Shown here piece by piece: positions 35,964-64,000 of a DNA stretch of 64,000 nt. Source of the DNA: Eledone cirrhosa (lineage: Eukaryota); contig OZ024752.1 of the NCBI GenBank assembly GCA_964016885.1, positions 16,120,001-16,184,000 on the forward strand, written 5' to 3'. The notes below the pieces were generated by a model. It searched no databases. It saw nothing but the letters and a program-made list of their open reading frames with translations, and was not told where the DNA came from. The position numbers were made by a program, and so were the translations under genes. Position 1 is the stretch's first letter, and each line of letters begins with the position of its first letter.

Positions 35964-36238
35964 TTGTGCCGCTTATATGGCGTCGTTGCGTTGGGAAAAA
36001 TTGTGTTCCGTCACTTGCTTGATATCGTCGCGTTCAGTTATATGGCGTTGTGCCGCTTATATGGGGTTGTTACGTTGTGCCGCTTATATGGCGACGTTAC
36101 GTTGTGCCGCTTATATGGCGCCGTTGTGTTGTGCCGCTTACATGGGGCCGTTACGTTGTGCCGCTTATATGGGGTCGTTACGTTGTGCCGCTTATATGGC
36201 GTCGTTACGTTGTGCCGCTTATATGGCGTCGTTACGTT
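35964..36238. repeat. 27-bp minisatellite
   Basis: Unit ttgtgccgcttatatggcgtcgttacg; ~7 tandem copies at 36048-36238 plus one upstream. Confidence 0.9.
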
Positions 36239-36639
36239 GAGAATAACTGTGTTCTGTCGCTCCCCTATTGACAGTGGTTAAACTACACCACGGCTGTGAA
36301 TTATCTAGGTGATATAGACAGGTGGAGCAATGTGTACTGGTAAGTAAGAACGAACCATGCGTAATTACGATGTGTGATATTGTTAAATACGAGATGTGTA
36401 GCTTATATAATAAAGTACGATGTAATGTATTTTGTACCATACATTATACAACAGTAGTTGAGGTGATCTTTCCATAATCAACTTGGGAAATTCTTAAACT
36501 AATGTTTATGTAATGGTACGTCAACCCCTAGCAACGGAGTGTGTGATCACTAATTTCATAACCGGAACAATTTCGTCTATGATTACACACCTATACATGG
36601 TGTAAATAAAAGATCTAAATATGAGGGAATGTGGGTTTG

Positions 36640-44123: not shown

Positions 44124-44312
44124 GTGGATTGGCAGTATTGGTAGAGGGTCGGATGCCATGCTTTCCAGCAGAGTTACGTCCCTTTACGATCTAAGTTCAA
44201 ATCCCGCCGAGGTTAACTTTGCCTTTCATCATTACGAGGTCGATAAAATAAAGTACCAGTAATGCACTGTGTAATTGCTGGCCTTCTGCCTAAAGTAGAA
44301 ACAATTATTATT
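44124..44312 (+). mobile_element. SINE family A
   Basis: Full copy with (ATT) tail. Confidence 0.85.
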
Positions 44313-44339
44313 AGTAGTAGTAGTAGTAGTATTATACTA

Positions 44340-44526
44340 ATAATTGTTTCTACGTTTGGCACAAGACCAGCAATTACCCAGTGTATTACTGGTACTTTAC
44401 TTTTCGACACCGTAAGGAAGAAAGGCAAAGTTAACCTTGGCGGCATTTGAACTATGGCAAGGGCCGTAACTCTATAAGTCAAAACATGGCGTCCGACCCT
44501 TTACCAGTACTAACAATCCACCGCCC
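44340..44526 (-). mobile_element. SINE family A
   Basis: Reverse-complement copy, tail-to-tail with the previous SINE. Confidence 0.85.
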
Positions 44527-44529
44527 TAG

Positions 44530-44576
<47 letters not shown>

Positions 44577-44823
44577 TTTCTTTATTAACCACAAGGGTTT
44601 ACATAAAGTAGACATTAAGGACAGTGCAGGACAATGCAGGACGGTACAAATGGGCATTTCTGCGTGTAAAAAACAAAAACAGAGGATGTAACAAAAATAA
44701 CAATGAAAAATTCCCCAATAGGGGGGAGACTTCGGAGGGACATTTGTGGAGAAAGCCCAGTAAAAAGCCACAATTACCCTGACCACCAAGACAAGTGCCC
44801 TCGCCCAGTTTTCCACCTTTAAT

Positions 44824-47800
44824 TTACAGATATATACTCAGAGTAGGCCCATTCACTCGGGCCATTCTTGCTTCTCTCACCCATCTTTCAACAAAATGCT
44901 GGGAAGAGAGCACTTCCCTCTCTACTCTGATTTTCCTTTTCAAATTAAATTTGAAAAAGTCAATCAGAGCATCACCGAAGAGGTAAGTGCTCGTCTTCAG
45001 CCCTTTCAAACGTGTCCACCATACTATCTCTTTCGCCATGGCCACCAGACAGATAAAAACTGCCTGCCCTTCCCGGCTAAAGGAGGAGGGCGGGGCAATC
45101 CTCACGATGGACTCAGATGATAGCTGGATCCGTCCTAAACGCGACAGCAGGTGTTCGACATAAACCCACAAGTCAGGAATTTTCGGACACTGGACGAGTG
45201 CGTGCAGGACGGTTTCGTCGCCCTGCGAGCATCTGGGACATGCCTGGCTGACGGCACCTCCATGCCTGTAGAGTTTATCCCGAACTGGCAAGGCTCCTCG
45301 GTAGCACTGCCAGGCCAGAGATTTCTGGAAGTTGTCCATAGGCCCCGGCCCGAAAGTTCTTCCGAAGAGATTGGCTAGTTGATTTTCGTCGACGCCTAGA
45401 GTTTCCCCAAGTACGTCGTCGCTCTTACCCTCCACTAATCCTCTATAGAACGCCGAGGTGGAGTTTCCACCGATCACATTGCCCGATTGGTCGAGGGCTG
45501 TGAGCGCCTGAAGACATTCCAGTCTCCAGGCGCTCCCTCTCGGTCTTCGCTTGACCCAGGACTACAGCTCCGTCAAGGAAACGAGCTGGGGAAATACGCG
45601 CCTAGCAAACGGCGACCACACCTGATCACCGTCGAGGAAGAGGTAGAGATGTCGTAGCCTGAGCGCGTGCCTGCGCATCATCAGCCACAGCATGCCCAGC
45701 CCTCCACGTAGCGGGTGTTGACAACAGATGGACCGCCTGACCATCGGAGCACGTCGCTTCCACAAAAAGCGAAAGAGCAAACGCTCCAGCGCAGTCAGGC
45801 GAGGCTTAGGACAAGTTACGACGGTCAGGCGGTAGCAGATGACAGACGCGATGTACGCGTTAGCCACCTCCGCTCGACCTTTTAGGGATAGCTTCCTCTC
45901 CGCCCATTTCTGGGTGAGAGAAGCCACCCTGCTCGTCACCTCGTCCCAGTTTTTGTCCGTCTGGAGGTCCGGACCGAACCAGACCCCTAGCAATTTAACC
46001 GGTCCGTCCGTCCAGCGTCCGACGACGCTGTTGGACGGCATGGACCTGCCTCTCCAGGTGCCGAGCTGCAGGCCCACTGACTTTTCCTTGTTGATCATTG
46101 CTCCTGTCACCGCTTCGTATTCTCTTAGTGTAGTGCCGATCGCCTCGATGTGTTTGGCGTTCGACACCACTACGGTGACATCGTCCGCATATGCTGACAC
46201 GGATCTTCCGCATCCTAGTTCGCGCGGGACTCCCCTCAACGTCTCCAGTTTGTGCAGTAATGGCTCGAGAGTCAATACGTACAAGAGGGACGAGAGGGGA
46301 CATCCTTGGCGGACCTAGCGCATGATGTTGAACGGTTCCGACAGGTGACCGTTCACTCTCACCACAGAGCAGATGTCGCTGTGCATGGCAGCGATCCAGC
46401 CTCTGAAGACGGGCCCAAAGCCAGCCGCCCTCAGGACTGCCGCTAGGTAACGATGGTCGACCCTATCGAAAGCTTTCGACTGATCTAAATTGATCAAGGA
46501 CCCACCCGTGCCAGGTTCCCTAGCTACCCTCTCTACGATGTATCGCATGAGGTGGAGATTGTCGTGGATGGATCTGTCGGGAATGGCGCATGTCTGCGCC
46601 TCTCCCACCAGACCACCAACGACAAGCGCCAACCTCTTTGCTAGCACCTTGGCCAAAATCTTAAACTCTGTGTTTAGCAGAGTTATGGGCCGGAAATTTT
46701 CTATGTTATCCCCCTTGTTCGGATCCTTTCTCAGCAGTGCCACCGCTCCTCGGCTCACAGAACTGGGAATTCTCCCGTTCTGTTGCCAGTTGCAGTAGAC
46801 GTCCGCCAAGAGGCCTCCGAACAAGTCTGGCATCTGTACGTAAAGTTCATAGGGCAGACCATCCAAACCAGGCGATTTACCCCTTGTGCAGCCAGTCATT
46901 GCCTCCCTTACTTCAGCGGCTGTTATCGGCTTTTCGCAACACTTCGCCTCAGTGGCCGAGAGCCGCGGCAGTCCCTCGAGGTAGACACTAAAGTCCATCC
47001 CTCTACCCGGCCCACCGCTGCCCCCGAACAGCTGAGCGAAGTGTCGCTGAAAAGCTTCACACATTTGCCCGGGATCGAGTAGCATGCGCCCGTCGTGGTC
47101 CACCAAAGACCGGATCGTGGCTTTGTTGCCACGACGCGCCTCCGCCACTCGGGCCCATTGAACGGCTTTCGTCCCCTCGTGTCTGAGAGCACGCACCCTA
47201 GCTCTGACAACGCAGCCTTCGTGCTTTGCATTGAAGAATTGGTCAAGGGCCAATTTCGCCGCAAGCACGTCGGTCGCAATGCCTTTGCTAAGCGCCTCGT
47301 CTAATTTTCTAACTAGTTCTCCCTCTGCTCTATTTTTCTCTATTGCTAAAGCCTTACTAAACCTAATCGATTCTATTCTAATCGCTCTTTTCCGAGCAAA
47401 CCACCACTTGTTGTTGACGATGGCCCCCGTCAACGCCCGCTTAACTAGTTCGCTAATCCGGTCTCTGTAGGCCTTGCGCGCTGGTAAGGACGCGTTTAGC
47501 TTCCAGTAGCCGGGTCCTCGTCTATGAAGCCTATCTAAGTCAAGCACACAGGTCACGAATTTGTGGTCCGTGTAGCTGACTATCTTGAATTGTGGACAGC
47601 CTATGCTAGACCTATCTATTTCCCTACAAAATACTCTATCTAGATATGATCTGGATGACCCTATGCGGTTTGTCCAAGTCCACATTGGCACATTCGGGAA
47701 ATCCAATCGGTACCTGTCAGACAGTTCAAAACGCCTGAGCAGGTTGGTGAGGCTCTTGCACCCTCCACCCCTATCCGCTAATCCCACACAGTCCCAGTGT

Positions 47801-48243
47801 GCATCTAAGATCCCGTTCCAGTCGCCCACTAACACTAAAGAGCGGGACGTTCCAAGAAAGGTCTCCAGACGCCGGAAGAAATCAGGCCTCCCTGCTCCTG
47901 TCGGGGCATAGACGGCCACTAGCCTGAAAGCTTGCCCGTCTCCGCTGGTCACGTCCAGCACCACCAGCTTACCCTCTGGGTCCAGGAAGATGGCCCGTAT
48001 GGCGAGATCCAAACCTCTCCGAAAAAGCACAGCAACTCCTCCACCCGATCCAGGACGGCTGGGAGATGCGTACACATCGTAGCCGCCGAAGATCGGTGCG
48101 AAGGCCCGTGCTTCGGAGATTCTGGTCTCGCTGATGGCCACTACATCTATGTTTAGTGACCTGAGGTCGTTGAGCAGGTGACCCTGCTTCCATGACGACC
48201 CCAAGCCACGCGCATTTATGCTGCCTATTCTGAGTGAGGTCAT
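44824..48243 (-). pseudogene. Tx1 ORF2 (APE endonuclease-RT-CCHC) with two in-frame TAG stops
   Basis: Collinear with the intact ORF2 at 58232-61651. Stops at 46315 and 45562. Confidence 0.93.
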
Positions 48244-48278
48244 GTTTAAAATAGAGTGGAAAAGATGGGAAAGACCAC

Positions 48279-50370
48279 TTACCGTACTTTTGGTAGAGGA
48301 GGGATGGTTTTTACATCCCTTTTCACTTGATCGTCTGGTGAAGGGACCGTTGAATCGTCCCTTCGGCTGGTCGTCGGCTCTTCTAAGAGAATGTCTGAAT
48401 ATACTCTTCGATTAATGGTTCCTCCTAGGTCCCTGAAATCACCAACTGCGTTGGGGAATTTCGTTTTAATGTTTGTGTATTGTTTCTGTGCTATTTTTAG
48501 CAGTCTTATGTTAGTTGGCGTTTTGATTGGTGCTGGTATTATGTAGTCCTGTTGTGAAATGTCTGTGTGTTCAATTATGTAAGTCATTAGTTTCTTGTTG
48601 TGTGTGTTTATTGCCGTGCATTTGTTTTTCTGGGGGTGGGGTGTGGTTCTGCTATTTTCTTGTCGTTGTTGCTGGGTGTGTGTGTTTTGTTGTTGTGTTT
48701 GCGATGTTGGTGCTTGTGGTGGTGGTGTTGAAGGTGTTGTTGGCGGTGGGGTTGTCGCCGGTGGTGATGGTGGTGCTGGTGTGGGTGGTGATGGTGTTGG
48801 TGGTGTTGCTGCTGTGGGTCTCTTTGCAGTAGACTTTACCCTTTTCTCATTTCTTTCCTCCCTTTTCAAAGGCGACGATGCGCTGCTTCTGCGTTTGTGC
48901 CTTCTTGCGACCTTTTGCCATCCCTCTCCCACCTCACACTCCATGTCTGATTCTGTAAGGTCGGGGAGGGGTACCAGCTCCACTCTTTCACTTGTTGTTG
49001 TTGGTGATGTTTGCACTGGAGTCTCTGTTGCAGCTGCATTTGGTATTGCTGTTGTTGTTGTTAATATTTCCACTGCTGCTGCTGTCTTTGATTTCCGTGG
49101 AGTGGGTATGGGTGCCACGGACCTATCGTTCCTGGTTGCCGCTTGTCCTGTTGCTGGTAGCCGTGGAGCCGGATTCGGAAGGAGGGGGGTTTTCTCCTTT
49201 CTCAGGGTCTTCTCGTTGCAGAAGGCCCTGAGGTGAGTCTTCGATCCACAGCGAAAGCATTTCGGGCGTTTGCCCTCAACACTTATGGGCAGTTGAGTGC
49301 CGTTATCGAAGTCTATCACATCCGGGATAGTTTCGATGCACTCCTGGTTGGTTTGGATTAGCATCTCAATGGAGGAGCCGACCCAATCTTCTCTTACTTT
49401 TTTCTGTACTTGCAGTACAGTTGTTTTGTCCTCGATTCCGACGAGGACAGACGCGGCCAGCCAAGAAGGGTTCATTCCGGGGGGGGACGTGGGTCAGTTT
49501 GACCCTCACAATTTTTTGCCCGCAGTAGGAGGGCACCAACACCATTTCCTCGCTCCTTAGGGTCACTACTGATTGGGTCTTTGCCTCCTGGGGTGTGGCA
49601 AAAAGTACGTCTACGGTGGCGTATTTTTTGCCTCGGGTGATGTGCGTTTTCCTCTGCCACACAGACCCCAAGGCTTTTTGTATTTGGGCCTCTGTGGCTC
49701 TTTCCACCCTACGGGATTTTGTACTTACTGTACGGTACGTGACCGTACAGTGCTCTTGGGTTTCGAAAAAATTTTTCGCTGCCTTGCAGATTGCTCGGTG
49801 TCCGTTCTTTGTCACCATCTTCTTCGCTTCCTCTAATTCCTCATTTGTTATGAGGATTGTTTCCAAGTTTTTCGCAATACCTGCAAATGAGATTGGTTTT
49901 TCTCTGCTGTTGTTGTTGTCGTCAGAGCTGCTGGTACTTTTGTTGTTGCTGCAGGTACTACGACTACTGCCTCCGCCGCTGTTGCTGTGGTTGTTGTTGG
50001 TGTTGCTGCTGCTAATGCTGTTGTTGTTTATGCTGCTGGTGATGCTGTTGCGGCTGCTACTGTTGTTTTCATTGTCACTGTTGCTGTTGTTATTACGGCT
50101 GCTACTGCTATTATTCCTGACGTCAGACGAATGAACTGGGTTTTCGTATTTCCCGCACACCTGTTTCGTCACTGTCGTCGTGGAGAAACCTTGCACGCTT
50201 TGCACGAGACTTTTCTTTTCTTTCGTCGCTTGCGAAAGAGAAGGGAGGGAGAGAGACACATTTAAAGAAGGGAGGGAGAGAGACAATCTTCTCTCTGCTG
50301 TAGTGATGATTGAGGAAGAAGAAGACGGAATGAGTGGGAGTGACGTATGAAATTTCTTTTTCGTAGCCAT
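48279..50370 (-). pseudogene. Tx1 ORF1 (gag-like, zinc knuckle), frameshifted in a G-run near 49480
   Basis: CFRCGSKTHLRAFC (CX2CX4HX4C). N/S-rich N-terminus and P/T/Q-rich C-terminal region. Confidence 0.88.
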
Positions 50371-50609
50371 GTTGTTTTTTGTTTAAAATGAAATTTTGGG
50401 TACAAAACCCCAATAACTGGTTATTTAACCCCGAAGGGCCAAATAACGGACAGAAAGACCCCTCTCACGAGGAGGAGGGTGTCTTTATCAACAATTTGGT
50501 TCAAGTTTTAAACAATTTACAATTGTTTTAACGGTTAAAAATTACTATACCTTACAGAGCCGAGCCTCCGTCAACCATGGCATTCAATAATAATAATAAT
50601 AATAATAAA

Positions 50610-52379
50610 ACCTAGAGATCTTCAAGGTGGCAGATAACATCAGACAGTTGTTGGAAAACAGAGTTAACATCAGCTGGAGAATCCTTGGGAGGCGTGACGA
50701 TTAAGAGAGGTGTCTTCCAGGGAGATAGTCTGTCCCCTCTGTTGTTTTTCCTTGCCCTGATGCCCCTGACCATTATACTGCGAAAAGTGAGAGCAGGATA
50801 CAAGTTGGGAAAGGGAGAACTTCCCATCAATCACCTCCTCTTCATGGACGATCTTAAGCTCTTCGGGAAGAGTGAGAAGGAGTTGGATGTGCTTGTTGAC
50901 ACTGTCCGTATTTTCAGCAATGATATATGTATGCAATTTGGTATTAGTAAGTGTGGTGTCCTTCTGATGAAGAGGGGTAAATTGAGCAGAAGCAACGGAA
51001 TCCAGGTATCAACAGGTGAGATGATAAAGGAAATTGACACTGAAGAAGGATACAAGTATTTGGGTGTTCTGGAGGCTGATGACATCAAGAACAAAAAAAT
51101 GAAGGAATTGATAAGATCTGAATACATTCGGAGAGTAAGGAGCGTATTAAAGTCACATCTGAACAGTAGGAATGCCATAAGTGCAGTAAATTCCCGAGCT
51201 GTGTCTATTATTAGGTACAGTGCGGGAATTCTGAGATGGAATGTTGCTGAACAAAAAGAAATGGATAGGAAGACTAGGAAGCTATTGACTATCTACAACA
51301 TGTTCCACAAGAGGAGTGATGTCGATAGACTCTATTTAAGGAGATCTGAAGGTGGAAGAGGTCTTATCAGCATAGAGGACTGTGTTCAGATGGAGAAAAA
51401 CAACCTACACAAATACGTGACTGATAGTAAGGAGCCAATGCTCAGAATTGTACTGAAGGAGAGGACAATAGACCAGGGGATGTCCAAGGAGGAAATAACA
51501 ACAAGGAGAAAGAGCAGCCTTCATGAAAAATCCCTTCATAGTACCTTCTTTGAGAAAACTGAATTCAGAGATCCACAGACATGGAACTGGTTGAAAACAG
51601 GAGACCTTAAAAAGGATACAGAAGGAATGCTAATGGCTGCACAAGAGCAGGCCCTCAAAACGACGTGGTAGAAACACCATATTTACAAGGAGGAGGCTAG
51701 CCCACTGTGCAGGATCTGTGGAGAGAGAGAGAGGAGACTGTGGCTCACATTGTATCCGAGTGTAAACACCTAGCCCACACCCACTATAAGGGCTGGAGAC
51801 ATGATGTGATGGGCAGGGTGATCCACTGGCACCTATGCAAAGTAAACAATTTACCACATTTTGAGAAGTGGTATGAGCATAAGCCATAGTCGGTGATAGA
51901 AAACGATCAGGTGAAGGTGCTGTGGGATTTTAGGATACAGACGGACAAGAAACTGGAACACAATAGACCTGACCTGGTGGTTTTGGACAAGGAAAAAAGA
52001 TCGTGCCTGATTGTGGATGTGGCCTGCCCATTCGACACGAGAGTGCAAGAGAAGGAGAGGGAGAAAATTAACCGATACCAGGACTTAAAGTGGGAGGTAA
52101 AAGGATTTGGAACTGCCATGAAGTCAAAGTGGTTCCGATTGTCATAGGCGCACTAGGTACTATCTCAAAAGGTTTCCAGGGATGGTTAAAGAAAATTGGC
52201 CCCGCCACGCTTTTTGGAACGCTTCAAAAGGCATGCTTGCTGGGAACAGCAAGAACCCTCCGATACGTCCTGAATATCTGAGGCTGCAGGTAATGGCTTG
52301 ATATTCATTTCAACAAACTTTCCTGGTAACTAACATCAATGACTGAGACTCAAAGAACAATAATAATAATAATAATAAT
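50610..52379 (+). mobile_element. Dong/R4-type RLE LINE, 5'-truncated, subfamily 1
   Basis: FQGDSLSPLLF, HLLFMDDLKL, zinc knuckle (CRIC..H..C), RHD, RPDLVV..IVDVACP (PD-D/ExK). Ends in (AAT)n. Confidence 0.9.
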
Positions 52380-53103
52380 GATTTCTTTATTAACCACAAG
52401 GGTTTACATAAAGTAGACATTAAGGACAGTACAGGACAATACAGGACGGTCGATACAAATGGGCATTTCTGCGTGTAAAAAAACAAAAAAAAACAGAGGA
52501 TGTCATAAAAGAACAATGAAAAATTCCCCAATAGGGGGGAGACTTCCGAGGGCCATCGTGGAGAAAGCCCATTAAAAAAAGCCACGGTGACCCTGACCAC
52601 CAGGGCAATTCTCCTCTCCCAGTTTTCCACCTTCAATTTACAGGCATATACTCAGAGTAGGTCCACTCACTCGGGCCTTTCTTACCGCTCTCACCCATCT
52701 TTCAACAAAAAGCTGGGAAGAGAGCACCTCCCTCTCTACTCTGATTTTCCTTTTCAAATGAAATTGGAAAAAGTTAATCAGAGCATCACCGAAGAGGTAA
52801 GTGCTCGTCTTCAGCCCTTTCAGACGCGTTCACCATACTATCTCTTTCGCCATGGCCACCAGACAGATAAAAACTGCCTGCCCTTCCCGGCTAAAGGAAG
52901 AGGGCGGGGCAATCCTCACAATGGACTCAGCTGATAGTCGGATCCGTTCTACACGCGACAGCAGGTGTTCGACATAAACCCACAAGTCAGCAATGCTCGG
53001 TCACTAGACGAGTGCATGCAGGACGGTTTCGTCGCCCTGCGCGCATCTCGGACATGCCCGGCTGACGGCACCTCCATGCCTGTAGAGTTTATCCCGAACT
53101 GGA
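52380..53103 (-). mobile_element. 5'-truncated Tx1 copy (diverged)
   Basis: Homologous to 44576-45287. Both ends abut (AAT)n. Confidence 0.92.
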
Positions 53104-53120
53104 AATAATAATAATAATAA

Positions 53121-56100
53121 AGCAAAAAATACTGAATTAGCGTGCAGTAGTAAGACATTCTAGTATAAATGAAAGAGCACCACTTCAAAAACTCCCAAAT
53201 ACAATCCAAAATAGAAAACAAATAATTGTTTCTACTTTAGGCACAAGGCCAGCAATTACCCAGTGCATTACTGGTACTTTATTTTATCGACCCCGTAAGG
53301 ATGAAAGGCAAAGTCAACCTCGGCGGGATTTGAACTCAGATCGTAAAGGGACGTAACTATGCTGGAAAGCATGGCGTCCGACTTTCTACCGATACTGCCA
53401 ATCCACCTTTCTTAGAAAACAAATAATGATTCGTAATTCTGTGACAAAAGAAATCAGAGAAGAACTAGAACCTTATCTTACTGAGTTGAATGAAATCATT
53501 TATGCATCTGCTATAGTAATTGAAACAAGTTGTTTGCCACAAAAAAAAAAACGAAAAAAGTCGCACCTTCGAGTTAAACCAATTTGGAGGAGTAGAACCG
53601 AAAAGGAGATTGACGTAATGAGAAGAGAAATATCTTTATTGAGTGAGTTAACCACTAGAAATGATATAAGATCCAAGAAGGTAAGAAAACTAAAGAGAAA
53701 ATATGGACTGTCTTCTAGAGAAGCAATAGTTTCACTAAAAGAATCTCTAAAACAAAAAGTCCAAGTAAAAGCCCAACGAATTCGTAGATTCGAGAAGCGA
53801 AACAACTTCTACAGGCAAAATAAGTTGTTCTCATCCAATGCCAAGTCATTTTATAGAGAAGTAGGGAAGAAAAAAATAATTATAGAAGAGGTTGAAAACT
53901 TCTGGAGTAAGATTTGGAGTGGTGAGAAGACATATAATGCTAATGTTGATTGGATTAGTCGCCTGGAAAAATCCTACACAAATTTAGAAAAACAGGCGTG
54001 GGAAGACATCTCTATAGCGGACTTAAGGACAGCACTCAATAAATCTCATAAATGGAAATCTCCTGGTAGAAACTGGGTGCAAAATTTCTTGCTTTCCTCA
54101 CTCCCGTGCACTCACAATATATTGGTGAAGTTGTTTAATGGAATTATGAAAGATCCAAAAAATATTCCTGATTTGATAGCAAGTGGCATTACCTACCATC
54201 TACCAAAGAACAACGAAACCAAAGATCAAAATAACTATCGGCCCATAACCTGCTTGTCCACCACTTATAAACTATTAACCTATATTCTCATGGAAAAAGC
54301 ATACGTGTTTTTGGAGGAGAACAATCTTTTCCCCATTGAACAAAAAGGGTGCCGACGAGGTTCATATGGTTGCAAAGATCAACTTTTGATTAATCGTATG
54401 ATCCTTGAGAACTGTCATAATAAACACAGAAATCTCAGTTCTGTATGGATCGATTATAAAAATGCCTTTGACAGCATACCACACTCATGGATTCTGAAAT
54501 CACTGGACATCTTCAAAATCTCACCTGTGATCTCAAACTTCATGAAACACAATATGTCATTATGGAAAACAAATCTCCAATTGTCTCATTCCACTGGGGT
54601 ACTGTGCTCTAGGAATATAATCATCAACTGTGGTATATTCCAGGGTGACTCACTTTCACCCTTGCTTTTTTGCATAGCTTTAATACCCCTTACATCCGAA
54701 CATAATAGAACAGGGTACGGTTATAGAATTGACAAAAAAAAAAATAAGCCACCTATTTTATATGGATGATTTAAAGCTATATTGCAAAGATAATGACGAA
54801 CTGGAAGGCCTTTTGCGGATAGTAAAAACGTTTAGCGATGACATCAGGAGGGAGTTTGGACTTGACAAGTGTGCAAAAGCCACTTTCAAGAAAGGGAAGC
54901 TTGTCAACTCAGACTCAGTTCAATTGGATGCTGAAACAATCATAAAGGAACTTGAGCAGGAACAAACCTACTTAGGTTAATGAGGGGGGGGGGCTCTGGC
55001 ATACAGCATGCAAGTATGAAAGAGAGGATAAGGAAAGAATGTTACAAGAGAGTACGTGCAGTTCTGAGATCAGAACTAAACGCTCGTAAAAGGTGCTAGC
55101 CATAAATTTCTTGGCAGTCCCAGCTGTCACTTATAGCTTCGGTGTGTTGAACTGGAATATGAGTGAAATCAAAAGAATCGATACCAAAGTCCGTAAGCTA
55201 CTGACCTGTAATAGGATGCACCACCCAAAAGCAGATGTGGATCGTCTTTACCTTCCTAGAACTCAAGGAGGCCGTGGCCTGATCCAATTTGAACTTGCTT
55301 ACAAAACCACCATCATTGGACTGGCCAAATACCTTGAAACAACTAACGACTATATGTGGAAACTTGTTGATAAGCATCAGAGAAGTAAGAAGCTTCATTC
55401 TATCTCGAAGGAGAGCAAAACATATGCTACTGATCTCATGCTTGATACCCAGGCTGGACAGACTAAAGAAACTGTTGCAACTGATGCCGCTAGGCACATA
55501 AAATCACTGGCAAAAGCAAAAGGGCAAGGACAATTAGCATCTAATTGGGAGCAGAAACCGCTGTATGGCAAATACGTGGCCCGTTGACCAAAAGCACACC
55601 CATCAGTGGCTACGTAGTTCAGGGTTAAAGGAGGAGAGTAAAAGCTTCATCTTAGCTGCCCAAGATCAAAGCTTATTGACTCGTAATTACCAGGACAATG
55701 TGATGAGAAACGGAATAAACCCAAAGTGCCGATTCTGCAAAGCTGAGGTTGAAACAGTGGATCACTTAGAGTCTGGATGTAAAGTTTTAGCACCAGTAGA
55801 ATACAAATATAGACATGACAGAGTTGGCCAATATCTACACTGGCTAATATGTCGGCATTACAAAATCAAAGCTGAAGACAAGTGGTACAATCATCATCCT
55901 GAGGCTGTAACTGAAGGGCAAAAAGTAACAATTCTCTGGGACTTTTCTGTACATACTAACAGGACCATAAAAGTAATTAGACCTGACATCATTGTAAAAG
56001 ATCAACATAACAAGGTATGTTTGTTGATAGATATGAGCATCCCATGTGATCACAATATCGCAGCAAAAGAATTTCACAAGCTACGAAAATATAAAGATCT

Positions 56101-56489
56101 GAGAAAATGTGGCACCTCAAGGCCGTTTACAATACCAGTGATTGTTGGAGTACTGGGTATGATCAAGAAAGGAACATAACACTATTTGCGAATGATTCCT
56201 GGTTTTCCCTCTCTGTACGAAGTGCAAAAAATTGTTTTGACTGGTACTGCACACGTATTGAGAAGAGCACTATCTCTGTAAGATTGATATCCCTCATTGT
56301 ATTTACATATGCATATGTACATGTGTATATATGTATACTGTTTTTTTTTATTATAATCAATGTGCTGTATTAACTAGATTACCAAAGCACACTGTGAATT
56401 TATTTGCCCAAGGTGTCACAAGACATTCGGCATATATCTCAGATTCAATAATGAAAGAAAATTAAAATAATAATAATAATAATAATAAT
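53121..56489 (+). mobile_element. Dong/R4-type RLE LINE, subfamily 2, frameshifted and interrupted by a SINE
   Basis: WKSPG, YRPITCLST, EQKGC, FQGDSLSP, YMDDLKL, CRFC..H..C, RHD, RPDIIV..IDMSIP..KY. (AAT)n tail at 56467-56489. Confidence 0.92.
53224..53412 (-). mobile_element. SINE family A with 15-bp TSD
   Basis: tagaaaacaaataat at 53212-53226 and 53413-53427. Confidence 0.9.
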
Positions 56490-57725
56490 GTTTTCTTTAG
56501 TGGCCACAAGGGCTGACACGAAGAAAAAACATTAGATACGGCACAGAACAGTACAGGACGATACAAAGTGGATTCTGGTCGTGTAAACAGGTTATAACAT
56601 AATTGGGCTAGAAATCCAAAAAAAATTCAAACAACAAAAATCGCGGCCAGCCAAGGTATGGGCACGTACGGCGGGACCTGGGTCACTTTGACCCTCACAA
56701 TTTTCTGCCCGCAGTAGGAGGGCACCAAGATTATCTCCTCACTCTTTAGGGTTTCCAAAGAGTGAGACCTCGCCTCTTGGGGGGTGGCGAAAAGTACGTC
56801 TACTGTGGCGTACTTTTTGCCTCGGGTGATGTGGGTTTTGCGCGCCCAGACGCACCCCCAAAGCCTTTTGGATTTGAGCCTCCGTGGCTCTCTCCACCCG
56901 ATGTGACATTTTGCTTACGGTGCGGTAAGTCACCGTGCGCAGCTGTTGGTCTTTGAAAAAATCAGGTGGAGGTTTCAGGGAAACTCTATTGTCATTTCTT
57001 GTCACGATGGTCTTGCGACTGCCATCTCCTCCTCCGTGACTAGCACTGTTTCTATATTTCGGGCCACACCTGCGAAAGAAGTGGTCCCTTTTTCAGCGGC
57101 ACCATTATTGCTGCTGGTCTTGTTGTTGGTGCTGTAGCTGTTGCTACTGCTACAAACGGTGTTGTTGCTGTTATCACTGTTGTAGTTGGTTGTGTTTTTG
57201 GGGCCACCGTTGTTGTTGTTTTCGGTGCAATTTGTATTGTTGATGTTGGTGTTGTCGTTGTTTATTTTCTTGTTAGTGGTGTTTATATCGTTGTTGCATT
57301 TGTTGTCATTTTTTTCTGTTGTCTGTATTTTGGTTGACGCTGTTATTGTTGTAGTTGGTGTGGTAATTTTTTCAAAATTAGTGTTCTCAGTGTTGCTGTC
57401 TTTGTTCACGTTGTTTGTGGTGGTGTCTGTTGTAACAATTTTTGTAACCCTCCTCTCAACTTTTACGCCGTTGTCAGACGACAGCAGACATATTGCTGGG
57501 GTCGTGGCTCAGCCATGTTTTTTTGTTTTTTTTTAAACAGTTTTTTTTTAAAGTAAAATGTTCAAATATTTGGGCCAAAAGGCCCAAATATTATACTTTC
57601 TCCTTCACAGGGCAAAGTCTAAGGGCTTATATCCCTTACACACCAAGAAATATTTAACAACAAATAATTTTAACAGGCAAATAAAGCGACTTACTGGGAG
57701 CGAGCAAAAAGCGTCCGAAAGACCG
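56490..57725 (-). mobile_element. Internally deleted Tx1 of a second subfamily
   Basis: 5'UTR and ORF1 N-terminus (SFAGVARNIETVLVTEEE, RVERATEAQIQKALG) joined near 56640 to a 3'UTR ending cccttgtggccactaaagaaaac(ATT)n. Confidence 0.85.
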
Positions 57726-57737
57726 ATAATAAAAAAA

Positions 57738-57929
57738 ATAATTGTTTCTACTTTTGGCACAAGGCCAGCAATAACCCAGTACATTACTGGTACTTTATTT
57801 TATCGACCCCGTAAGGATGAAAGGCAAAGTTAACTTCGGCGGGATTTGAACTCAGATCATAAAGGGCAGTAACTCTATGCTGCAAAGAATGGCGTCCGAC
57901 CCTGTACCGATACTGCCAATCAACCGCCC
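57738..57929 (-). mobile_element. SINE family A
   Basis: Reverse-complement full copy. Confidence 0.85.
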
Positions 57930-57950
57930 TCATAATACTACTACTACTAC

Positions 57951-57983
<33 letters not shown>

Positions 57984-58231
57984 TTTCTTTATTAACCACA
58001 AGGGTTTACATAAAGTATACATTAAGGACAGTGCAGGACAATGCAGGACGGTACAAATGGGCATTTCTGCGTGTAAAAAACAAAAACAGAGGATGTAACA
58101 AAAAATAACAATGAAAAATTCCCCAATAGGGGGCAGACTTCGGAGGGACATTTGTGGAGAAAGCCCAGTAAAAAGCCACAATGACCCTGACCACCAAGGC
58201 AAGTGCCCTCTCCCAGTTTTCCACCTTTAAT

Positions 58232-61200
58232 TTACAGATATATACTCAGAGTAGGCCCATTCACTCGGGCCATTCTTGCTTCTCTCACCCATCTTTCAAC
58301 AAAATGCTGGGAAGAGAGCACTTCCCTCTCTACTCTGATTTTCCTTTTCAAATGAAATTTGAAAAAGTCAATCAGAGCATCACCGAAGAGGTAAGTGCTC
58401 ATCTTCAGCCCTTTCAAACGTGTCCACCATACTATCTCTTTCACCATGGCCACCAGGCAGATAAAAACTGCCTGCCCTTCCCGGCTAAAGGAGGAGGGCG
58501 GGGCAATCCTCACGATGGACTCAGATGATAGCCGGATCCGTCCTAAACGCGACAGCAGGTGTTCGACATAAACCCACAAGTCAGCAATTTTCGGACACTG
58601 GACGAGTGCGTGCAGGACGGTTTCGTCGCCCTGCGCGCATCTCGGACATGCCCGGCTGACGGCACCTCCATGCCTGTAGAGTTTATCCCGAACTGGCAAG
58701 GCTCCTCGGTAGCACTGCCAGGCCAGAGATTTCTGGAAGTTGTCCATAGGCCCTGGCCCGAAAGTTCTTCCGAAGAGATTGTCTAGTTGATTTTCGTCGA
58801 CGCCTAGAGTTTCCCCAAGTACGTCGTCGCTCTTCCCCTCCACTAATCCTCTATAGAACGCCGAGGTGGAGTTTCCACCGATCACATTGCCCGATTGGTC
58901 GAGGGCTGTGAGCGCCTGAAGACATTCCAGTCTCCAGGCGCTCCCTCTCGGTCTTCGCTTGACCCAGGACTGCAGCTCCGTCAAGGAAACGAGCTGGGGA
59001 AAAACGCGTCTAGCAAACGGCGACCACACCTGATCACCGTCGAGGAAGAGGTGGAGATGTCGTAGCCTGAGCGCGTGCCTGCGCATCATCAGCCACGGCA
59101 TGCCCAGCCCTCCACGTAGCGGGTGTTGACAACAGATGGACCGCCTGACCATCGGAGCGCGTCCCTTCCACAAAAAGCGAAAGAGCAAACGCTCCAGCGC
59201 AGTCAGGCGAGGCTTAGGACAAGGTACGACGGTCAGGCGGTAGCAGATGACAGACGCAATGTACGCGTTCGCCACCTGCGCTCGACCTTTCAGGGATAGC
59301 TTCCTCTCCGCCCATTTCTGGGTGAGAGAAGCCACCCTGCTCGTCACCTCGTCCCAGTTTTTGTCCGTCTGGAGGTCCGGACCGAACCAGACCCCTAGCA
59401 ATTTAACCGGTCCGTCCGTCCAGCGTCCGACGACGCTGTTGGACGGCATGGACCTGCCTCTCCAGGTGCCGAGCTGCAGCCCCACTGACTTTTCCTGGTT
59501 GATCATTGCTCCTGTCACCGCTTCGTATTCTCTTAGTGTAGTGCCGATCGCCTCGATGTGTTTGGCGTTCGACACCACTACGGTGACATCGTCCGCATAT
59601 GCTGACACGGATCTTCCGCATCCTAGTTCGCGCGGGACGCCCCTCAACGTCTCCAGTTTGTGCAGTAATGGCTCGAGAGTCAATACGTACAAGAGGGACG
59701 AGAGGGGACATCCTTGGCGGACCGAGCGCATGATGTTGAACGGTTCCGACAGGTGACCGTTCACTCTCACCACAGAGCAGATGTCGCTGTGCATGGCAGC
59801 GATCCAGCCTCTGAAGACGGGCCCAAAGCCAGCCGCCCTCAGGACTGCCGCTAGGTAACGATGGTCGACCCTATCGAAAGCTTTCGACTGATCTAAATTG
59901 ATCAAGGACCCACCCGTGCCAGGTTCCCTAGCTACCCTCTCTACGAGGTATCGCATGAGGTGGAGGTTGTCGTGGATGGATCTGTCGGGAATGGCGCATG
60001 TCTGCGCCTCTCCCACCAGACCACCAACGACAAGCGCCAACCTCTTTGCTAGCACCTTGGCCAAAATCTTGAACTCTGGGTTTAGCAGAGTTATGGGCCG
60101 GAAATTATCTATGTTATCCCCCTTGTTCGGATCCTTTCTCAGCAGTGCCACCGCTCCTCGGCTCACAGAACTGGGAATTCTCCCGTTCTGTTGCCAGTTG
60201 CAGTAGACGTCCGTCAAGAGGCCTCCGAACAAGTCTGGCATCTGTACGTAAAGTTCATAGGGCAGACCATCCAAACCAGGCGATTTACCCCTTGTGCAGC
60301 CAGTCATTGCCTCCCTTACTTCAGCGGCTGTTATCGGCTTTTCGCAACACTTCGCCTCAGTGGCCGAGAGCCGCGGCAGTCCGTCGAGGTAGACACTAAA
60401 GTCCATCCCCCTACCCGGCCCACCGCTGCCCCCGAACAGCTGAGCGAAGTGTCGCTGAAAAGCTTCACACATTTGCCCGGGATCGAGTAGCATGCGCCCG
60501 TCGTGGTCCACCAAAGACCGGATCGTGGCTTTGTTGCCACGACGCGCCTCCGCCACTCGGGCCCATTGAACGGCTTTCGTCCCCTCGTGTCTGAGAGCAC
60601 GCACCCTTGCTCTGACAACGCAGCCTTCGTGCTTTGCATTGAAGAATTGGTAAACGGCCAATTTCGCCGCAAGCACGTCGGTCGCAATGCCTTTGCTAAG
60701 CGCCTCGTCTAATTTTCTAACTAGTTCTCCCTCTGCTCTATTTTTCTCTATTGCTAAAGCCTTACTAAACCTAATCGATTCTATTCTAATCGCTCTTTTC
60801 AGAGCAAACCACCACTTGTTGTTGACTATGGCCCCCGTCAACGCCCACTTAACTAGTTCGCTAATCCGGTCTCTGTAGGCCTTGCGCGCTGGTAAGGACG
60901 CGTATAGCTTCCAGTAGCCGGGTCCTCGTCTATGAAGCCTATCTAAGTCAAGCACACAGATCACGAATTTGTGGTCCGTGTAGCTGACTATCTTGAATTT
61001 TGGACAGCCTATGCTAGACCTATCTATTTCCCTACAAAATACTCTATCTAGATATGATCTGGATGACCCTATGCGGTTTGTCCAAGTCCACATTGGCACA
61101 ATCGGGAAATCCAATCGGTACCTGTCAGACAGTTCAAAACGCCTGAGCAGGTTGGTGAGGCTCTTGCACCCTCCACCCCTATCCGCTAATCCCACACAGT

Positions 61201-61651
61201 CCCAGCGTACATCTAAGATCCCGTTCCAGTCGCCCACTAACACTAAAGAGCGGGACGTTCCAAGAAAGGTCTCCAGACGCCGGAAGAAATCAGACTGCCC
61301 TGCTCCTGTCGGGGCATAGACGGCCACTAGCCTGAAAGCTTGCCCGTCTCCGCTGGTCATGTCCAGCACCACCAACTTACCCTCTGGGTCCAGGAAGATG
61401 GCCCGTATGGCGAGATCCAAACCTCTCCGAAAAAGCACAGCAACTCCTCCCCCCGATCCAGGACGGCTGGGAGATGCGTACACATCGTAGCTGCCGAAGA
61501 TCGGTGCGAAGGCCCGTGCTTCGGAGATTCTGGTCTCGCTGATGGCCACTACATCTATGTTTAGTGACCTGAGGTCGTTGAGCAGGTGACCCTGCTTCCA
61601 TGACGACCCCAAGCCACGCGCATTTATGCTGCCTATTCTGAGTGAGGTCAT
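58232..61651 (-). CDS. Tx1 ORF2 polyprotein: APE endonuclease + reverse transcriptase + C-terminal CCHC, intact 1139 aa
   Basis: SINARGL, SETR, VYAP, GDWN, LDR, TDH (APE); PGLDG, FRPITLLN, KAFDRV, QGCPLS, YADD (RT); CPRC..HALVQC. Confidence 0.95.
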   Translation of the reverse strand: MTSLRIGSINARGLGSSWKQGHLLNDLRSLNIDVVAISETRISEARAFAPIFGSYDVYASPSRPGSGGGVAVLFRRGLDLAIRAIFLDPEGKLVVLDMTSGDGQAFRLVAVYAPTGAGQSDFFRRLETFLGTSRSLVLVGDWNGILDVRWDCVGLADRGGGCKSLTNLLRRFELSDRYRLDFPIVPMWTWTNRIGSSRSYLDRVFCREIDRSSIGCPKFKIVSYTDHKFVICVLDLDRLHRRGPGYWKLYASLPARKAYRDRISELVKWALTGAIVNNKWWFALKRAIRIESIRFSKALAIEKNRAEGELVRKLDEALSKGIATDVLAAKLAVYQFFNAKHEGCVVRARVRALRHEGTKAVQWARVAEARRGNKATIRSLVDHDGRMLLDPGQMCEAFQRHFAQLFGGSGGPGRGMDFSVYLDGLPRLSATEAKCCEKPITAAEVREAMTGCTRGKSPGLDGLPYELYVQMPDLFGGLLTDVYCNWQQNGRIPSSVSRGAVALLRKDPNKGDNIDNFRPITLLNPEFKILAKVLAKRLALVVGGLVGEAQTCAIPDRSIHDNLHLMRYLVERVAREPGTGGSLINLDQSKAFDRVDHRYLAAVLRAAGFGPVFRGWIAAMHSDICSVVRVNGHLSEPFNIMRSVRQGCPLSSLLYVLTLEPLLHKLETLRGVPRELGCGRSVSAYADDVTVVVSNAKHIEAIGTTLREYEAVTGAMINQEKSVGLQLGTWRGRSMPSNSVVGRWTDGPVKLLGVWFGPDLQTDKNWDEVTSRVASLTQKWAERKLSLKGRAQVANAYIASVICYRLTVVPCPKPRLTALERLLFRFLWKGRAPMVRRSICCQHPLRGGLGMPWLMMRRHALRLRHLHLFLDGDQVWSPFARRVFPQLVSLTELQSWVKRRPRGSAWRLECLQALTALDQSGNVIGGNSTSAFYRGLVEGKSDDVLGETLGVDENQLDNLFGRTFGPGPMDNFQKSLAWQCYRGALPVRDKLYRHGGAVSRACPRCAQGDETVLHALVQCPKIADLWVYVEHLLSRLGRIRLSSESIVRIAPPSSFSREGQAVFICLVAMVKEIVWWTRLKGLKMSTYLFGDALIDFFKFHLKRKIRVEREVLSSQHFVERWVREARMARVNGPTLSIYL

Positions 61652-61686
61652 GTTTAAAATAGAGTGGAAAAGATGGGAAAGACCAC

Positions 61687-63786
61687 TTACCTTACTTTTC
61701 GTAGAGGAGGGATGGTTTTTCCATCCCTTTTCACTTGATCGTCTGGTGAAGGGACCGTTGAATCGTCCCTTCGGCTGGTCGTCGGCTCTTCTATGAGTAT
61801 GTCCGAATATACTCTTCGGTTGACAGTTCCTCCTAGGTCTCTGAAAGCACCAACTGCGTTGGGGAATTTCGTTTTAATGTTTGTGTATTGTTTCTGTGCT
61901 ATTTTTAGTAGTCTTATGTTAGTTGGCGTTTTGATTGGTGCTGGTATTATGTAGTCGTGTTGTGAAATGTCAGTGTGTTCAATTATGTAAGTCATTAGTT
62001 TCTTGTTGTGTGTATTTATTGCCGTGCATTTGTTTTTCTGGGGGTGGGGTGTGGTTCTGCTATTTTCTTGTCGTTGTTGCTGGGTGTGTGTGTTTTGTTG
62101 TTGTGTTTGCGATGTTGGTGCTTGTGGTGGTGGTGTTGAAGGTGTTGTTGGCGGTGGGGTTGTCGCCGGTGGTGATGGTGGTGCTAGTGTGGGTGGTGAT
62201 GGTGTTGGTGGTGTTGCTGCTGTGAGTCTCTTTGCAGTAGACTTTACCCTTTTTTCATTTCTTTCCTCCCTTTTCAAAGGCGACGATGCGCTGCTTCTGC
62301 GTTTGTGCCTTCTTACGACCTTTTGCCATCCCTCTCCCACCTCACACTCCATTCTGATTCTGTGAGGTCGGGGAGGGGTACCAGTTCCACTCTTTCACTT
62401 GTTGTTGTTGGTGATGTTTGCACTGGAGTCTCTGTTGCAGCTGCATTTGGTATTGCTGTTGTTGTTGTTAATACTTCCACTGCTGCTGCTGTTTTTGATT
62501 TCCGTGGCGTGGGTATGAGTGCCACGGCCCTATCGTTCCTGGTTGCCGCTTGTCCTGTTGCTGGTAGCCGTGGACCGGTTTCGGAAGGAGGGGGGTTTTC
62601 TCCTTTCTCAGGGTCTTCTCGTTGCAGAAGGCCCTGAGGTGAGTCTTCGATCCACAGCGAAAGCATTTCGGGCGTTTGCCCTCAACACTTATGGGCAGTT
62701 GAGTGCCGTTATCGAAGTCTATCACATCCGGGATAGCTTCGATGCACTCCTGGTTGGTTTGGATTAACATCTCAATGGAGGTGCCAACCCAATCTTCTCT
62801 TACTTGTTTCTGTACTTGCAGTACAGTTGTTTTGTCCTCGATTCCGACGAGGACAGACGCCGCCAGCCAAGAAGGGGCCAACCCGGGGGGGACGTGGGTC
62901 AGTTTGACCCTCACAATTTTTTGCCCGCAGTAGGAGGGCACCAACACCATTTCCTAGCTCCTTAGGGTCACTACGGATTGAGCCTTTGCCTCCTGGGGTG
63001 TGGCAAAAAGTACGTCTATGGTGGCATATTTCTTGCCTCGGGTGATGTGCTTTTTCCGCTGCCACACAGACCCCAAGGCTTTTTGTATTTGAGCCTCTGT
63101 GGCTCTTTCAACCCTACGGGATTTTGTACTTACTGTACGGTACGTGACCGTACAGTGCTGTTGGGTTTCGAAAAATTTTTCCGCTGCCTTGCAGATTGCT
63201 CGGTGTCCTGTTTTTGTCACCATCGTCTTCGCTTCCTCTAATTCCTCATTTGTTATGAGGATTGTTTCCAGGTTCTTCGCGATACCTGCAAACGAGATTG
63301 CTTTTTCTTTGCTGCTGTTGTTGTTGTTGTTGTCGTCAGAGCTGCTGTTACTTTTGTTGTTGCTGCAGGTACTACGACTACTGCCGCCGCCGCTGTTGCT
63401 GTGGTTGTTGTTGTTGTTGCTGCTGCTAATGCTGTTGTTGTTTATGCTGCTGCTGATGCTGTTGCGGCTGCTACTGTTGTTTTCATTGTCACTGTTGCTG
63501 TTGTTATTACGGCTGCTACTGCTATTATTCCTGACGTCAGACGAATGAAATGGGTTTTCGTATTTCCCGCACACCTGTTTCGTCTTTGTCGTCGTCGTCG
63601 TGGAGAAATCTTGCACGCTTTGCACGAGACTTTTCTTTTCTGTCGCCGCTTGCGAAAGAGAAGGGGGGGAGACACGTTTAAAGAAGGGAGGGAGAGAGAC
63701 AATCTTCTCTCTGCTGTAGTGACGATTGAGGAAGAAGAAGACGGAATGAGTGGGAGTGACCTATGAAAATTCTTTTTCGTAGCCAT
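61687..63786 (-). pseudogene. Tx1 ORF1 copy B, several frameshifts
   Basis: Pieces 63442-63786, 62954-63625, 62468-62950, 62313-62666 and 61687-62352 align to ORF1 of copy A. Confidence 0.85.
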
Positions 63787-64000
63787 GTTGTTTTTTGTTT
63801 AAAATAAATATTGGGCACAAAACCCCAATAAGCAGCTATTTAACCCCGAAGGGCCAAATAACGGGCAGAAAGACCCCTCTCACGAGGAGGAGGGTGTTTT
63901 TGTCTACGAGTTGGTTAAAGTTTTAAACAATTTACAATTGTTATAGCGTTCAAAATTTACAATACCTTACAGAGCCGAGCCTCCGTCAACCATAGCATTC

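What the first reader, a model, noticed from the sequence alone, without database searches (positions are those of the whole stretch)
44340..64000. 20-kb (AAT)n nest: Tx1 and Dong/R4 LINEs exploit opposite strands of one microsatellite
Seen: order is SINE(-), Tx1(-), Dong(+), Tx1(-), Dong(+, with SINE-), Tx1del(-), SINE(-), Tx1(-). LINE junctions are (AAT)n on the plus strand (44530, 50586, 52359, 53104, 56467, 57955; only a short AATAAT at ~57726). All Tx1/SINE copies point one way with (TTA)n tails and both RLE elements point the other way with (TAA)n tails. Known: Dong targets (TAA)n. Inference: each insertion regenerates a target for both clades, giving a self-growing head-to-head/tail-to-tail cluster that could yield antisense read-through or piRNAs.
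Basis: partly seen in the sequence, partly recalled or inferred. Interest (0 to 1): 0.75.

Follow-up and report, generated by a model that had tools for sequence, protein, structure and literature searches.

The report
Retrotransposons share AAT repeats, opposite strands
Two unrelated kinds of jumping gene and a short hitch-hiker element sit stacked in runs of the three-letter repeat AAT, each kind almost always facing its own way across the sampled genome, likely because their enzymes cut opposite strands of the same repeat; repeat-targeting is known, and the proposed silencing role is untested.

Summary
Observation confirmed element by element. The strand rule holds across this octopod-like genome. 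All 30 full-length Tx1 copies have ATTATT directly upstream. 25 of 30 full-length Dong copies have AAT upstream and none has ATT. 210 of 211 AAT-bridged junctions, and 33 of 35 contacts in 800 kb of unselected DNA, follow the rule. The nest grew by separate insertions of different ages, not by duplication.

The alternation is not special: a neighbour's class does not depend on the anchor's class (odds ratios 0.91 and 1.02, small n). The SINE carries a Tx1-type 3' hairpin with compensatory changes, absent from 100 Dong ends. It duplicates 15-18 bp starting ATTATT (4 of 7 nested cases). Antisense read-through and piRNAs could not be tested; Tx1 ends carry AATAAA (30 of 30).

Dong on (TAA)n and opposite-strand sharing (TRAS/SART) are known. 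An ATT-targeting Tx1 paired with an RLE element was not found in print. The scan has noted the same pattern at other loci of this genome. New variant of a known kind; interest 0.45.

The parts
44124..44309 (+). SINE just outside the nest, tail-to-tail with the first nest SINE
44339..44521 (-). SINE (tRNA-like A/B boxes judged by eye, motif recalled); 85-86% identical to the other three window SINEs compared
44531..44572 (+). (AAT)14 tract: Tx1A tail and target
44575..50585 (-). Tx1A copy 1, full length; ORF1 frameshifted, ORF2 in three pieces; 99.0% identical to its nearest copy elsewhere
50586..50606 (+). (AAT)7 head-to-head junction
50607..52358 (+). DongA, 5'-truncated (last 1.75 kb of about 4.9 kb); RT and RLE motif; 3' end 98% identical to other copies
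52359..52379 (+). (AAT)7 tail-to-tail junction
52380..53105 (-). Tx1A copy 2, 3' 730-bp fragment; older (best 92.6% to another copy)
53104..53118 (+). (AAT)5 junction between two truncated 5' ends
53118..56465 (+). DongB, 5'-truncated and frameshifted; RT, CCHC, RLE motif; 3' end 93% identical to the best other copies
53221..53406 (-). SINE nested in DongB, with a 15-bp target-site duplication (53212-53226 and 53413-53427) that begins ATTATT on the SINE strand
56466..56489 (+). (AAT)8 tail-to-tail junction
56492..57725 (-). Tx1B (second Tx1 family) with both ends and an internal deletion of about 4.6 kb
57737..57924 (-). SINE
57951..57980 (+). (AAT)10 tract
57982..64000 (-). Tx1A copy 3, full length; ORF2 open (1213 aa stop to stop), ORF1 broken; (AAT)7 follows at 64001-64021

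Best explanation
The stretch is a nest of eight separate retroelement insertions strung on (AAT)n tracts, with Tx1-type LINEs and the SINE reading on the ATT strand and Dong-type LINEs on the AAT strand, likely because their different endonucleases nick opposite strands of the same repeat and their repeat-tailed RNAs prime there. Shown: the polarity, the target, and stepwise growth. Inferred: Tx1 (APE) nicks the AAT strand after AATAAT and its AUU tail pairs with the freed end; Dong (RLE) does the reverse; the SINE borrows Tx1 enzymes through a shared 3' hairpin. Each insertion leaves repeat on both sides, so target number grows and nests lengthen. Which class lands next is independent of the neighbour, so head-to-head and tail-to-tail pairs are a by-product of shared targeting, not a partnership.
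For: 5' flanks, which are target and not tail: Tx1A 30 of 30 ATT, all ending in exactly ATTATT (26 independent flanks after dropping array repeats). Full-length Dong 25 of 30 AAT and 0 ATT; the other 5 have (AAG)n; 7 of the 30 come from one array. 5'-truncated DongA 28 of 44 rows AAT and 0 ATT (7 rows are not true ends); DongB 16 of 23. 3' ends: Tx1A 29 of 30 ATT; DongA and DongB 29 of 30 AAT each. Junction polarity 210 of 211. Unselected 800 kb: 25 of 37 tracts touch one of these families and 33 of 35 contacts obey. 19 of 29 Tx1A 3' ends have a family neighbour within 160 bp (8 Dong), against 0.5%, 0.4% and 2.1% (Dong, Tx1, SINE) for a random point. No alternation bias: [[8,4],[11,5]] and [[10,9],[12,11]], p=1.0. 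Independent insertions: window Tx1 copy 1 is 99.0% to copies elsewhere but 97.1% to copy 3, and the SINEs beside them are 84.7% alike. SINE hairpin: CTTGT loop, commonest position 16 nt from the tail, in Tx1A 27 of 32, Tx1C 12 of 13, Tx1B 3 of 4, SINE 90 of 103 and Dong 0 of 100 ends; stem pair 2 is C-G in Tx1 and G-C in the SINE, pair 3 is A-T in Tx1A and G-C in Tx1B/C and the SINE. SINE duplications of 15, 15, 17 and 18 bp, all starting ATTATT. Dong on (TAA)n is known in insects, molluscs and cnidarians (PMC7998251 and PMC3812793, passages).
Against: No cleavage or retrotransposition was assayed, so endonuclease choice and tail-primer pairing are not separated. Targeted loci are the best-matching (young) 30 of several hundred to about 2,000 candidates, not a random draw. 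Truncated or internally deleted Tx1 rows are less clean: 6 of 18 ATT, 1 AAT. 4 of 20 full-length Tx1 copies have under 15 nt of pure ATT downstream, which does not fit a 15-18 bp duplication for the LINE itself. 3 of 7 nested SINE cases show no clear duplication. The alternation test is small and would miss a modest bias. Some nests also grow by near-identical tandem amplification.
Confidence: 0.85

Rival explanations
1. Tail-annealing only: the endonucleases are loosely AT-specific and the orientation is set by the RNA's repeat tail pairing with whichever strand is complementary.
For: Tails match target strands in every family. SINEs insert at sites with as little as ATTATT. The tracts are often retroelement tails themselves (25 of 37 tracts touch a family member).
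Against: The exact ATTATT register at the 5' junction in 30 of 30 full-length Tx1 copies suggests a defined cut. In TRAS/SART, swapping the endonuclease swaps the specificity (PMC7265360, passage).
Confidence: 0.3
2. The nest is a functional or selected antisense/piRNA source in which Tx1 and Dong silence each other.
For: Convergent and divergent pairs are common (70 Dong-Tx1 junctions, all opposite). DongA 3' ends lack AATAAA (0 of 30). Bombyx Dong self-cleaves from co-transcripts (PMC3774820, passages). Molluscs express piRNAs (PMC6128900, search listing and start of abstract only).
Against: No excess of alternation. Tx1A (30 of 30) and DongB (27 of 30) carry AATAAA at the 3' end, which would limit read-through. 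Both clades remain young and abundant: many Tx1A copies have both ORFs open, and Tx1 and Dong cover 3.1% and 2.7% of 800 kb.
Confidence: 0.15
3. The 20-kb block arose mainly by segmental duplication or assembly error (SINE+Tx1 appears twice).
For: 44339-50585 aligns to 57737-64000 at 96.4%. Tandem arrays with 98-100% identical units exist elsewhere.
Against: The two SINEs are only 84.7% alike, and Tx1 copy 1 is closer to copies at other loci (99.0%) than to copy 3 (97.1%). Element identities to their best relatives range from about 90 to 99%.
Confidence: 0.03
4. Passive accumulation: elements insert anywhere and survive only in AAT tracts.
For: PMC3812793 (passage) offers this for Drosophila Waldo elements near CA repeats.
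Against: Survival does not explain the strand polarity (210 of 211) or the exact register in the youngest copies.
Confidence: 0.03

Closest known systems
TRAS and SART of Bombyx mori on (TTAGG)n (PMC7265360, passages)
   Same: Two LINE families insert into one tandem repeat in opposite directions, each on its own strand; specificity follows the endonuclease.
   Different: Both are R1-clade APE elements (clade recalled) at telomeres. Here an L1-group APE element and an RLE element converge on a dispersed trinucleotide microsatellite, and a SINE joins in.
Dong (R4 clade): B. mori Dong, DongAg, DongBg, ostracod Dong (PMC3812793, PMC7998251, PMC3774820; passages)
   Same: RT plus C-terminal RLE; inserts in (TAA)n, with the repeat on the sense strand upstream.
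   Different: No difference in targeting. At least three families coexist here (DongA and DongC 41% identical in protein). No HDV-like ribozyme was detected at the DongA 5' end.
Microsatellite-targeting Tx1 elements Kibi (TC)n, Koshi (TTC)n and crocodilian Tx1 on (TTCC)n/(TTTC)n (PMC4494074, passages and section 15)
   Same: Two-ORF APE-RT LINE of the L1/Tx1 group with a microsatellite target.
   Different: The target is (ATT)n, not listed in the passages seen.
Stringent SINE-LINE pairs with a shared 3' stem-loop, including the monocot L1 lineage with maize and sorghum SINEs (PMC3747384, passages); SINEU/Tx1-Mar in crocodilians (PMC4494074, passages)
   Same: The SINE shares a 3' hairpin with compensatory changes and the target of an L1-group LINE.
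   Different: Here a very abundant octopod SINE (107 fragments in 800 kb) pairs with ATT-targeting Tx1.

Membership tests
Tx1 group (L1 clade) | Two ORFs; ORF2 = N-terminal APE + RT + C-terminal CCHC | tested here: met
   702-aa and 1204-aa frames in intact copies; Pfam Exo_endo_phos, RVT_1, zf-RVT
Tx1 group (L1 clade) | RT closer to L1 than to R2 | tested here: met
   PDB search: L1 ORF2 E=2e-52, R2 E=5e-21
Tx1 group (L1 clade) | Groups with reference Tx1/Kibi/Koshi/Keno in an RT tree | tested here: inconclusive
   Groups 100/100 with a set that includes a coral protein named 'Transposon TX1 149 kDa' (38% identical), but only against Dong-type rows; no curated references were available
Tx1 group (L1 clade) | Target-sequence preference | tested here: met
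   30 of 30 5' flanks end in ATTATT
Dong / R4 clade | Single ORF, RT followed by CCHC and RLE (PD..D), no APE | tested here: met
   P0123; motifs in the window copies; no APE hit; best PDB hits are R2 proteins
Dong / R4 clade | Inserts in (TAA)n with the repeat on the sense strand | tested here: met
Dong / R4 clade | Divergent N-terminal SANT/Myb-like domain, no N-terminal zinc fingers | tested here: inconclusive
   No Pfam hit in the N-terminus of P0123, which may be incomplete; the published detection needed HHpred (PMC7998251)
Dong / R4 clade | Groups with reference R4/Dong in an RT tree | not testable with these tools
   No named R4 or Dong sequence among the 120 homologues listed
Dong / R4 clade | 5' HDV-like ribozyme (shown for B. 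mori Dong and R4) | tested here: inconclusive
   No ribozyme family among Rfam hits on 2 Dong 5' loci; no match to a rough descriptor of my own that had no positive control
Stringent SINE-LINE pair | Shared 3' structure with compensatory changes | tested here: met
Stringent SINE-LINE pair | Shared target and tail | tested here: met
   SINE 5' flanks ATT-dominant in 22 of 29, AAT-dominant in 0; same strand as Tx1 in 22 of 22 junctions
Stringent SINE-LINE pair | Trans-mobilisation shown by assay | not testable with these tools
   needs a cell assay
piRNA cluster | Produces 24-32 nt 1U small RNAs; antisense to resident elements | not testable with these tools
   No RNA holder was listed

The most novel reading that the evidence does not exclude
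Strand-polarised AAT nests form a dispersed, self-assembling mutual antisense trap. About one chain of three or more elements occurs per 200 kb (4 in 80 unselected windows). Transcription of a Dong without a poly(A) signal would run into antisense Tx1 and SINE, and vice versa, so sharing one microsatellite from opposite strands would build piRNA or dsRNA sources against both of the genome's most active LINE clades.
Probability: 0.15. Interest if true: 0.75.

Novelty: new variant of a known kind. Interest (0 to 1): 0.45.

Why it matters
It gives a sequence-level cause for LINE/SINE hotspots in octopod genomes, where Dong-R4 and L1-Tx1 are among the recently active LINEs (PMC13282606, Table 1). 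The passages I read there do not discuss targeting. It adds (ATT)n as a Tx1 target and names a likely motor for a very abundant SINE. It also provides a natural pair of unrelated endonucleases (APE and RLE) that read one 3-bp repeat from opposite strands, a clean system for asking whether the nick or the RNA tail sets orientation. Most AAT microsatellites here abut retroelements, which matters for marker design. If nests prove to make piRNAs, it would be a new route to dispersed silencing loci.

Tried and rejected
Alternation as a rule: rejected. Segmental duplication of SINE+Tx1: rejected. RNA evidence: no RNA holder listed, which is no evidence either way. Contigs of four runs of unrecorded kind laid on the DongA/Tx1 junction cover both elements in all four runs, including runs labelled as two other organisms, but no listed piece spans the repeat, so junction conservation could not be judged. 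HDV-like ribozyme at Dong and Tx1 5' ends: nothing found, weak tests. Distance control at 500-5000 bp: 26 of 39 pairs follow the rule; SINE-SINE (6 same, 7 opposite) and Dong-SINE (3 same, 4 opposite) look random, while Dong-Tx1 stays 7 of 7 opposite. The tree with named homologues cannot fix clades without references. Kojima & Fujiwara 2004 and Xiong & Eickbush 1993 are not held, so they are cited through later papers. Searches for an ATT/AAT-targeting Tx1 or this pairing found nothing relevant; Repbase and Dfam entries and subscription papers were not searchable, and no supplements were read (those of PMC4494074 and PMC13282606 may list further Tx1 targets). PMC12988792: none of six terms found.
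Full report
1. Observation. The annotation holds. The six + strand runs of four or more AAT units in the 64-kb window are exactly the six LINE junctions. The minus-strand LINEs encode APE, RT and zf-RVT; the plus-strand ones encode RT with an RLE-type RPD..D motif. The nest closes with (AAT)7 at 64001-64021, followed by DNA without these LINEs. The genome is 3.0 Gb. The closest homologue of the Tx1 RT that names an organism is from Argonauta hians (73%), so the host is probably an octopod (inference).

2. Families. Tx1A is 6.0 kb with 702-aa and 1204-aa frames, both open in many copies (e.g. L124, L126, L128, L130, L132, L134, L139, L161). It resembles L1 ORF2 (E=2e-52) more than R2. At least 40 copies have a 5' end identical to the window's over 296 bp, so the family is young. 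Tx1B and Tx1C are about 75-85% relatives. DongA is about 4.9 kb with one ORF (RT, CCHC, RLE), and its best PDB hits are R2 proteins. DongB and DongC are further families; DongA and DongC are 41% identical in protein. The clade labels rest on anatomy, homologues and target. A tree separated the two groups (100/100) but had no curated references.

3. Is the rule genome-wide? Yes, in every sample drawn. 3' ends: Tx1A ATT 29 of 30, DongA AAT 29 of 30, DongB AAT 29 of 30; each set includes the window's own copy. A tail can be encoded by the element, so the 5' flank is the real target test. Full-length Tx1A: 30 of 30 ATT, every one ending in ATTATT (26 independent flanks). Full-length Dong (A or C): 25 of 30 AAT, 0 ATT, 5 with (AAG)n (7 rows come from one array). 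Truncated DongA 28 of 44 rows (7 rows are not true ends) and DongB 16 of 23 have AAT. Full-length SINEs have ATT-dominant flanks in 22 of 29 and AAT-dominant in none. Truncated or deleted Tx1 rows are weaker, 6 of 18. Across de-duplicated junctions bridged by three or more units, outside the window's own loci, 210 of 211 follow 'Tx1 and SINE one way, Dong the other': Dong-Tx1 70 of 70 opposite, Dong-SINE 35 of 35 opposite, SINE-Tx1 22 of 22 same, Dong-Dong 57 of 58 same. These loci were chosen as best matches, so I also took 80 10-kb windows at round coordinates. There, 25 of 37 tracts of four or more units touch one of the families, 33 of 35 contacts obey the rule (6 tracts come from one window), and 4 of 80 windows hold a chain of three or more elements.

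4. How the nest grew. Window Tx1 copy 1 is 99.0% identical to copies elsewhere but 97.1% to copy 3, and the SINEs beside them are 84.7% alike, so this is not a duplication. Identity to the best relative suggests an older core (Tx1B 90%, Tx1A copy 2 92.6%, DongB 93%) with younger additions (copy 3 97.4%, DongA 98%, copy 1 99.0%); these are rough age proxies from the sampled copies. Target is regenerated: 16 of 20 full-length Tx1 copies have 12 nt or more of ATT on both sides. Where a SINE sits inside a Dong copy and the empty site is known, the duplication is 15, 15, 17 and 18 bp and always starts ATTATT (4 of 7 nested cases, one being the window's own; 3 unclear). This implies a first nick on the AAT strand after AATAAT (inference from target-primed reverse transcription). 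In a pure tract it would add 5-6 repeat units. Against generalising this to the LINE: 4 of 20 full-length Tx1 copies have under 15 nt of ATT downstream.

5. Alternation is a by-product. 19 of 29 Tx1A 3' ends have a family neighbour within 160 bp, far above a random point (0.4-2.1% per class). But the class of the neighbour is the same whether the anchor is Tx1 or Dong (odds ratios 0.91 and 1.02, p=1.0; small samples). Random tracts have a Dong on their left in 10 of 37 cases, matching 8 of 29 for Tx1-occupied tracts. Shared targeting is enough to explain the clustering.

6. Why the SINE follows Tx1. Tx1A, Tx1B, Tx1C and the SINE carry a CTTGT loop closed by a short stem, most often 16 nt from the tail. 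Stem pairs change on both sides between families, and none of 100 Dong ends has the loop. By plain local alignment the SINE end scores higher against Tx1 ends (27-31) than against Dong ends (15-17), but the scores are only near the top of the background, so the hairpin, not raw identity, carries the claim. An earlier scan note (e1-9580941) proposed the same pairing; I tested it after reading that note. Trans-mobilisation is inferred.

7. Antisense and piRNA. Not testable: no RNA holder was listed. Sequence hints cut both ways. Tx1A (30 of 30) and DongB (27 of 30) have AATAAA at the 3' end, DongA (0 of 30) does not, and none of the 90 ends has a poly(A) tail of 10 or more. Bombyx Dong self-cleaves from co-transcripts (PMC3774820, passages), but no ribozyme was detected here with weak tests. 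I put a functional silencing role at about 15%.

8. Comparison with what is known. Dong on (TAA)n is established, in molluscs too (PMC7998251 and PMC3812793, passages). Tx1 families target (TC)n, (TTC)n, (TTCC)n and (TTTC)n (PMC4494074, passages and section 15). TRAS and SART enter (TTAGG)n in opposite directions (PMC7265360, passages). Dong-R4 and L1-Tx1 are abundant and recently active in octopuses (PMC13282606, first third of the text and passages; PMC8967140, passages), with no targeting described in what I read. Passages of PMC3747384, PMC4758252 and PMC4640811 gave context only. An (ATT)n-targeting Tx1, or an APE/RLE pair on opposite strands of one microsatellite, did not appear; Repbase, subscription journals and supplements were not seen. 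The scan had noted the same pattern at other loci of this genome.

9. Verdict. Real, genome-wide and mechanistically intelligible: a new combination of known habits. Novelty: new variant of a known kind. Interest 0.45.

Noticed in passing
L145:3196-3900, L243:7264-7968 and L234-L252: DongA and DongC, only 41% identical in protein and with no BLASTN match between their bodies, share a 5' leader of about 700 nt at 88-97% identity. 9 rows continue into a DongA body and about 10 into 2 kb or more of DongC body. This suggests a recent 5' UTR swap or capture between co-oriented families.
   Followed up: partly
G000:C2:353611525-353641300 (L211-L216, L219) and C2:124761042-124779836 (L110-L113): Tandem arrays: 7 DongC units 4.9 kb apart and 4 or more Tx1A units 6.15 kb apart, with units 98.2-100% identical and, in the Tx1A array, about 130-160 bp of repeated flank; also L096/L097 with a 286-bp repeated flank. 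Recent tandem amplification between AAT tracts, or assembly error.
   Followed up: partly
L259:3914-4082, L265:5427-5572; upstream flank of L107: A short inverted-repeat element whose arms enclose AAT and ATT runs facing each other (MITE-like). Its inner part also lies upstream of a Tx1A copy.
   Followed up: no
L205, L207, L209, L223, L232: 5 of 30 full-length Dong 5' junctions have (AAG)n in place of, or after, (AAT)n; the element itself starts GGAAGAAG, which suggests slippage at the junction.
   Followed up: no
window 18592-19335 (-): Weak GIY-YIG match (E=0.003), possibly a Penelope-like element.
   Followed up: no
L012:2125-2206; also L031 near 960-1010 and the flank of L027: A recurring near-perfect hairpin of about 80 bp next to (AT)n runs; its Rfam matches look like hairpin artefacts.
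   Followed up: no
window 25547-25749, 34315-34675, 35907-36239: Minisatellites with 37-, 33-, 84- and 27-bp periods.
   Followed up: no
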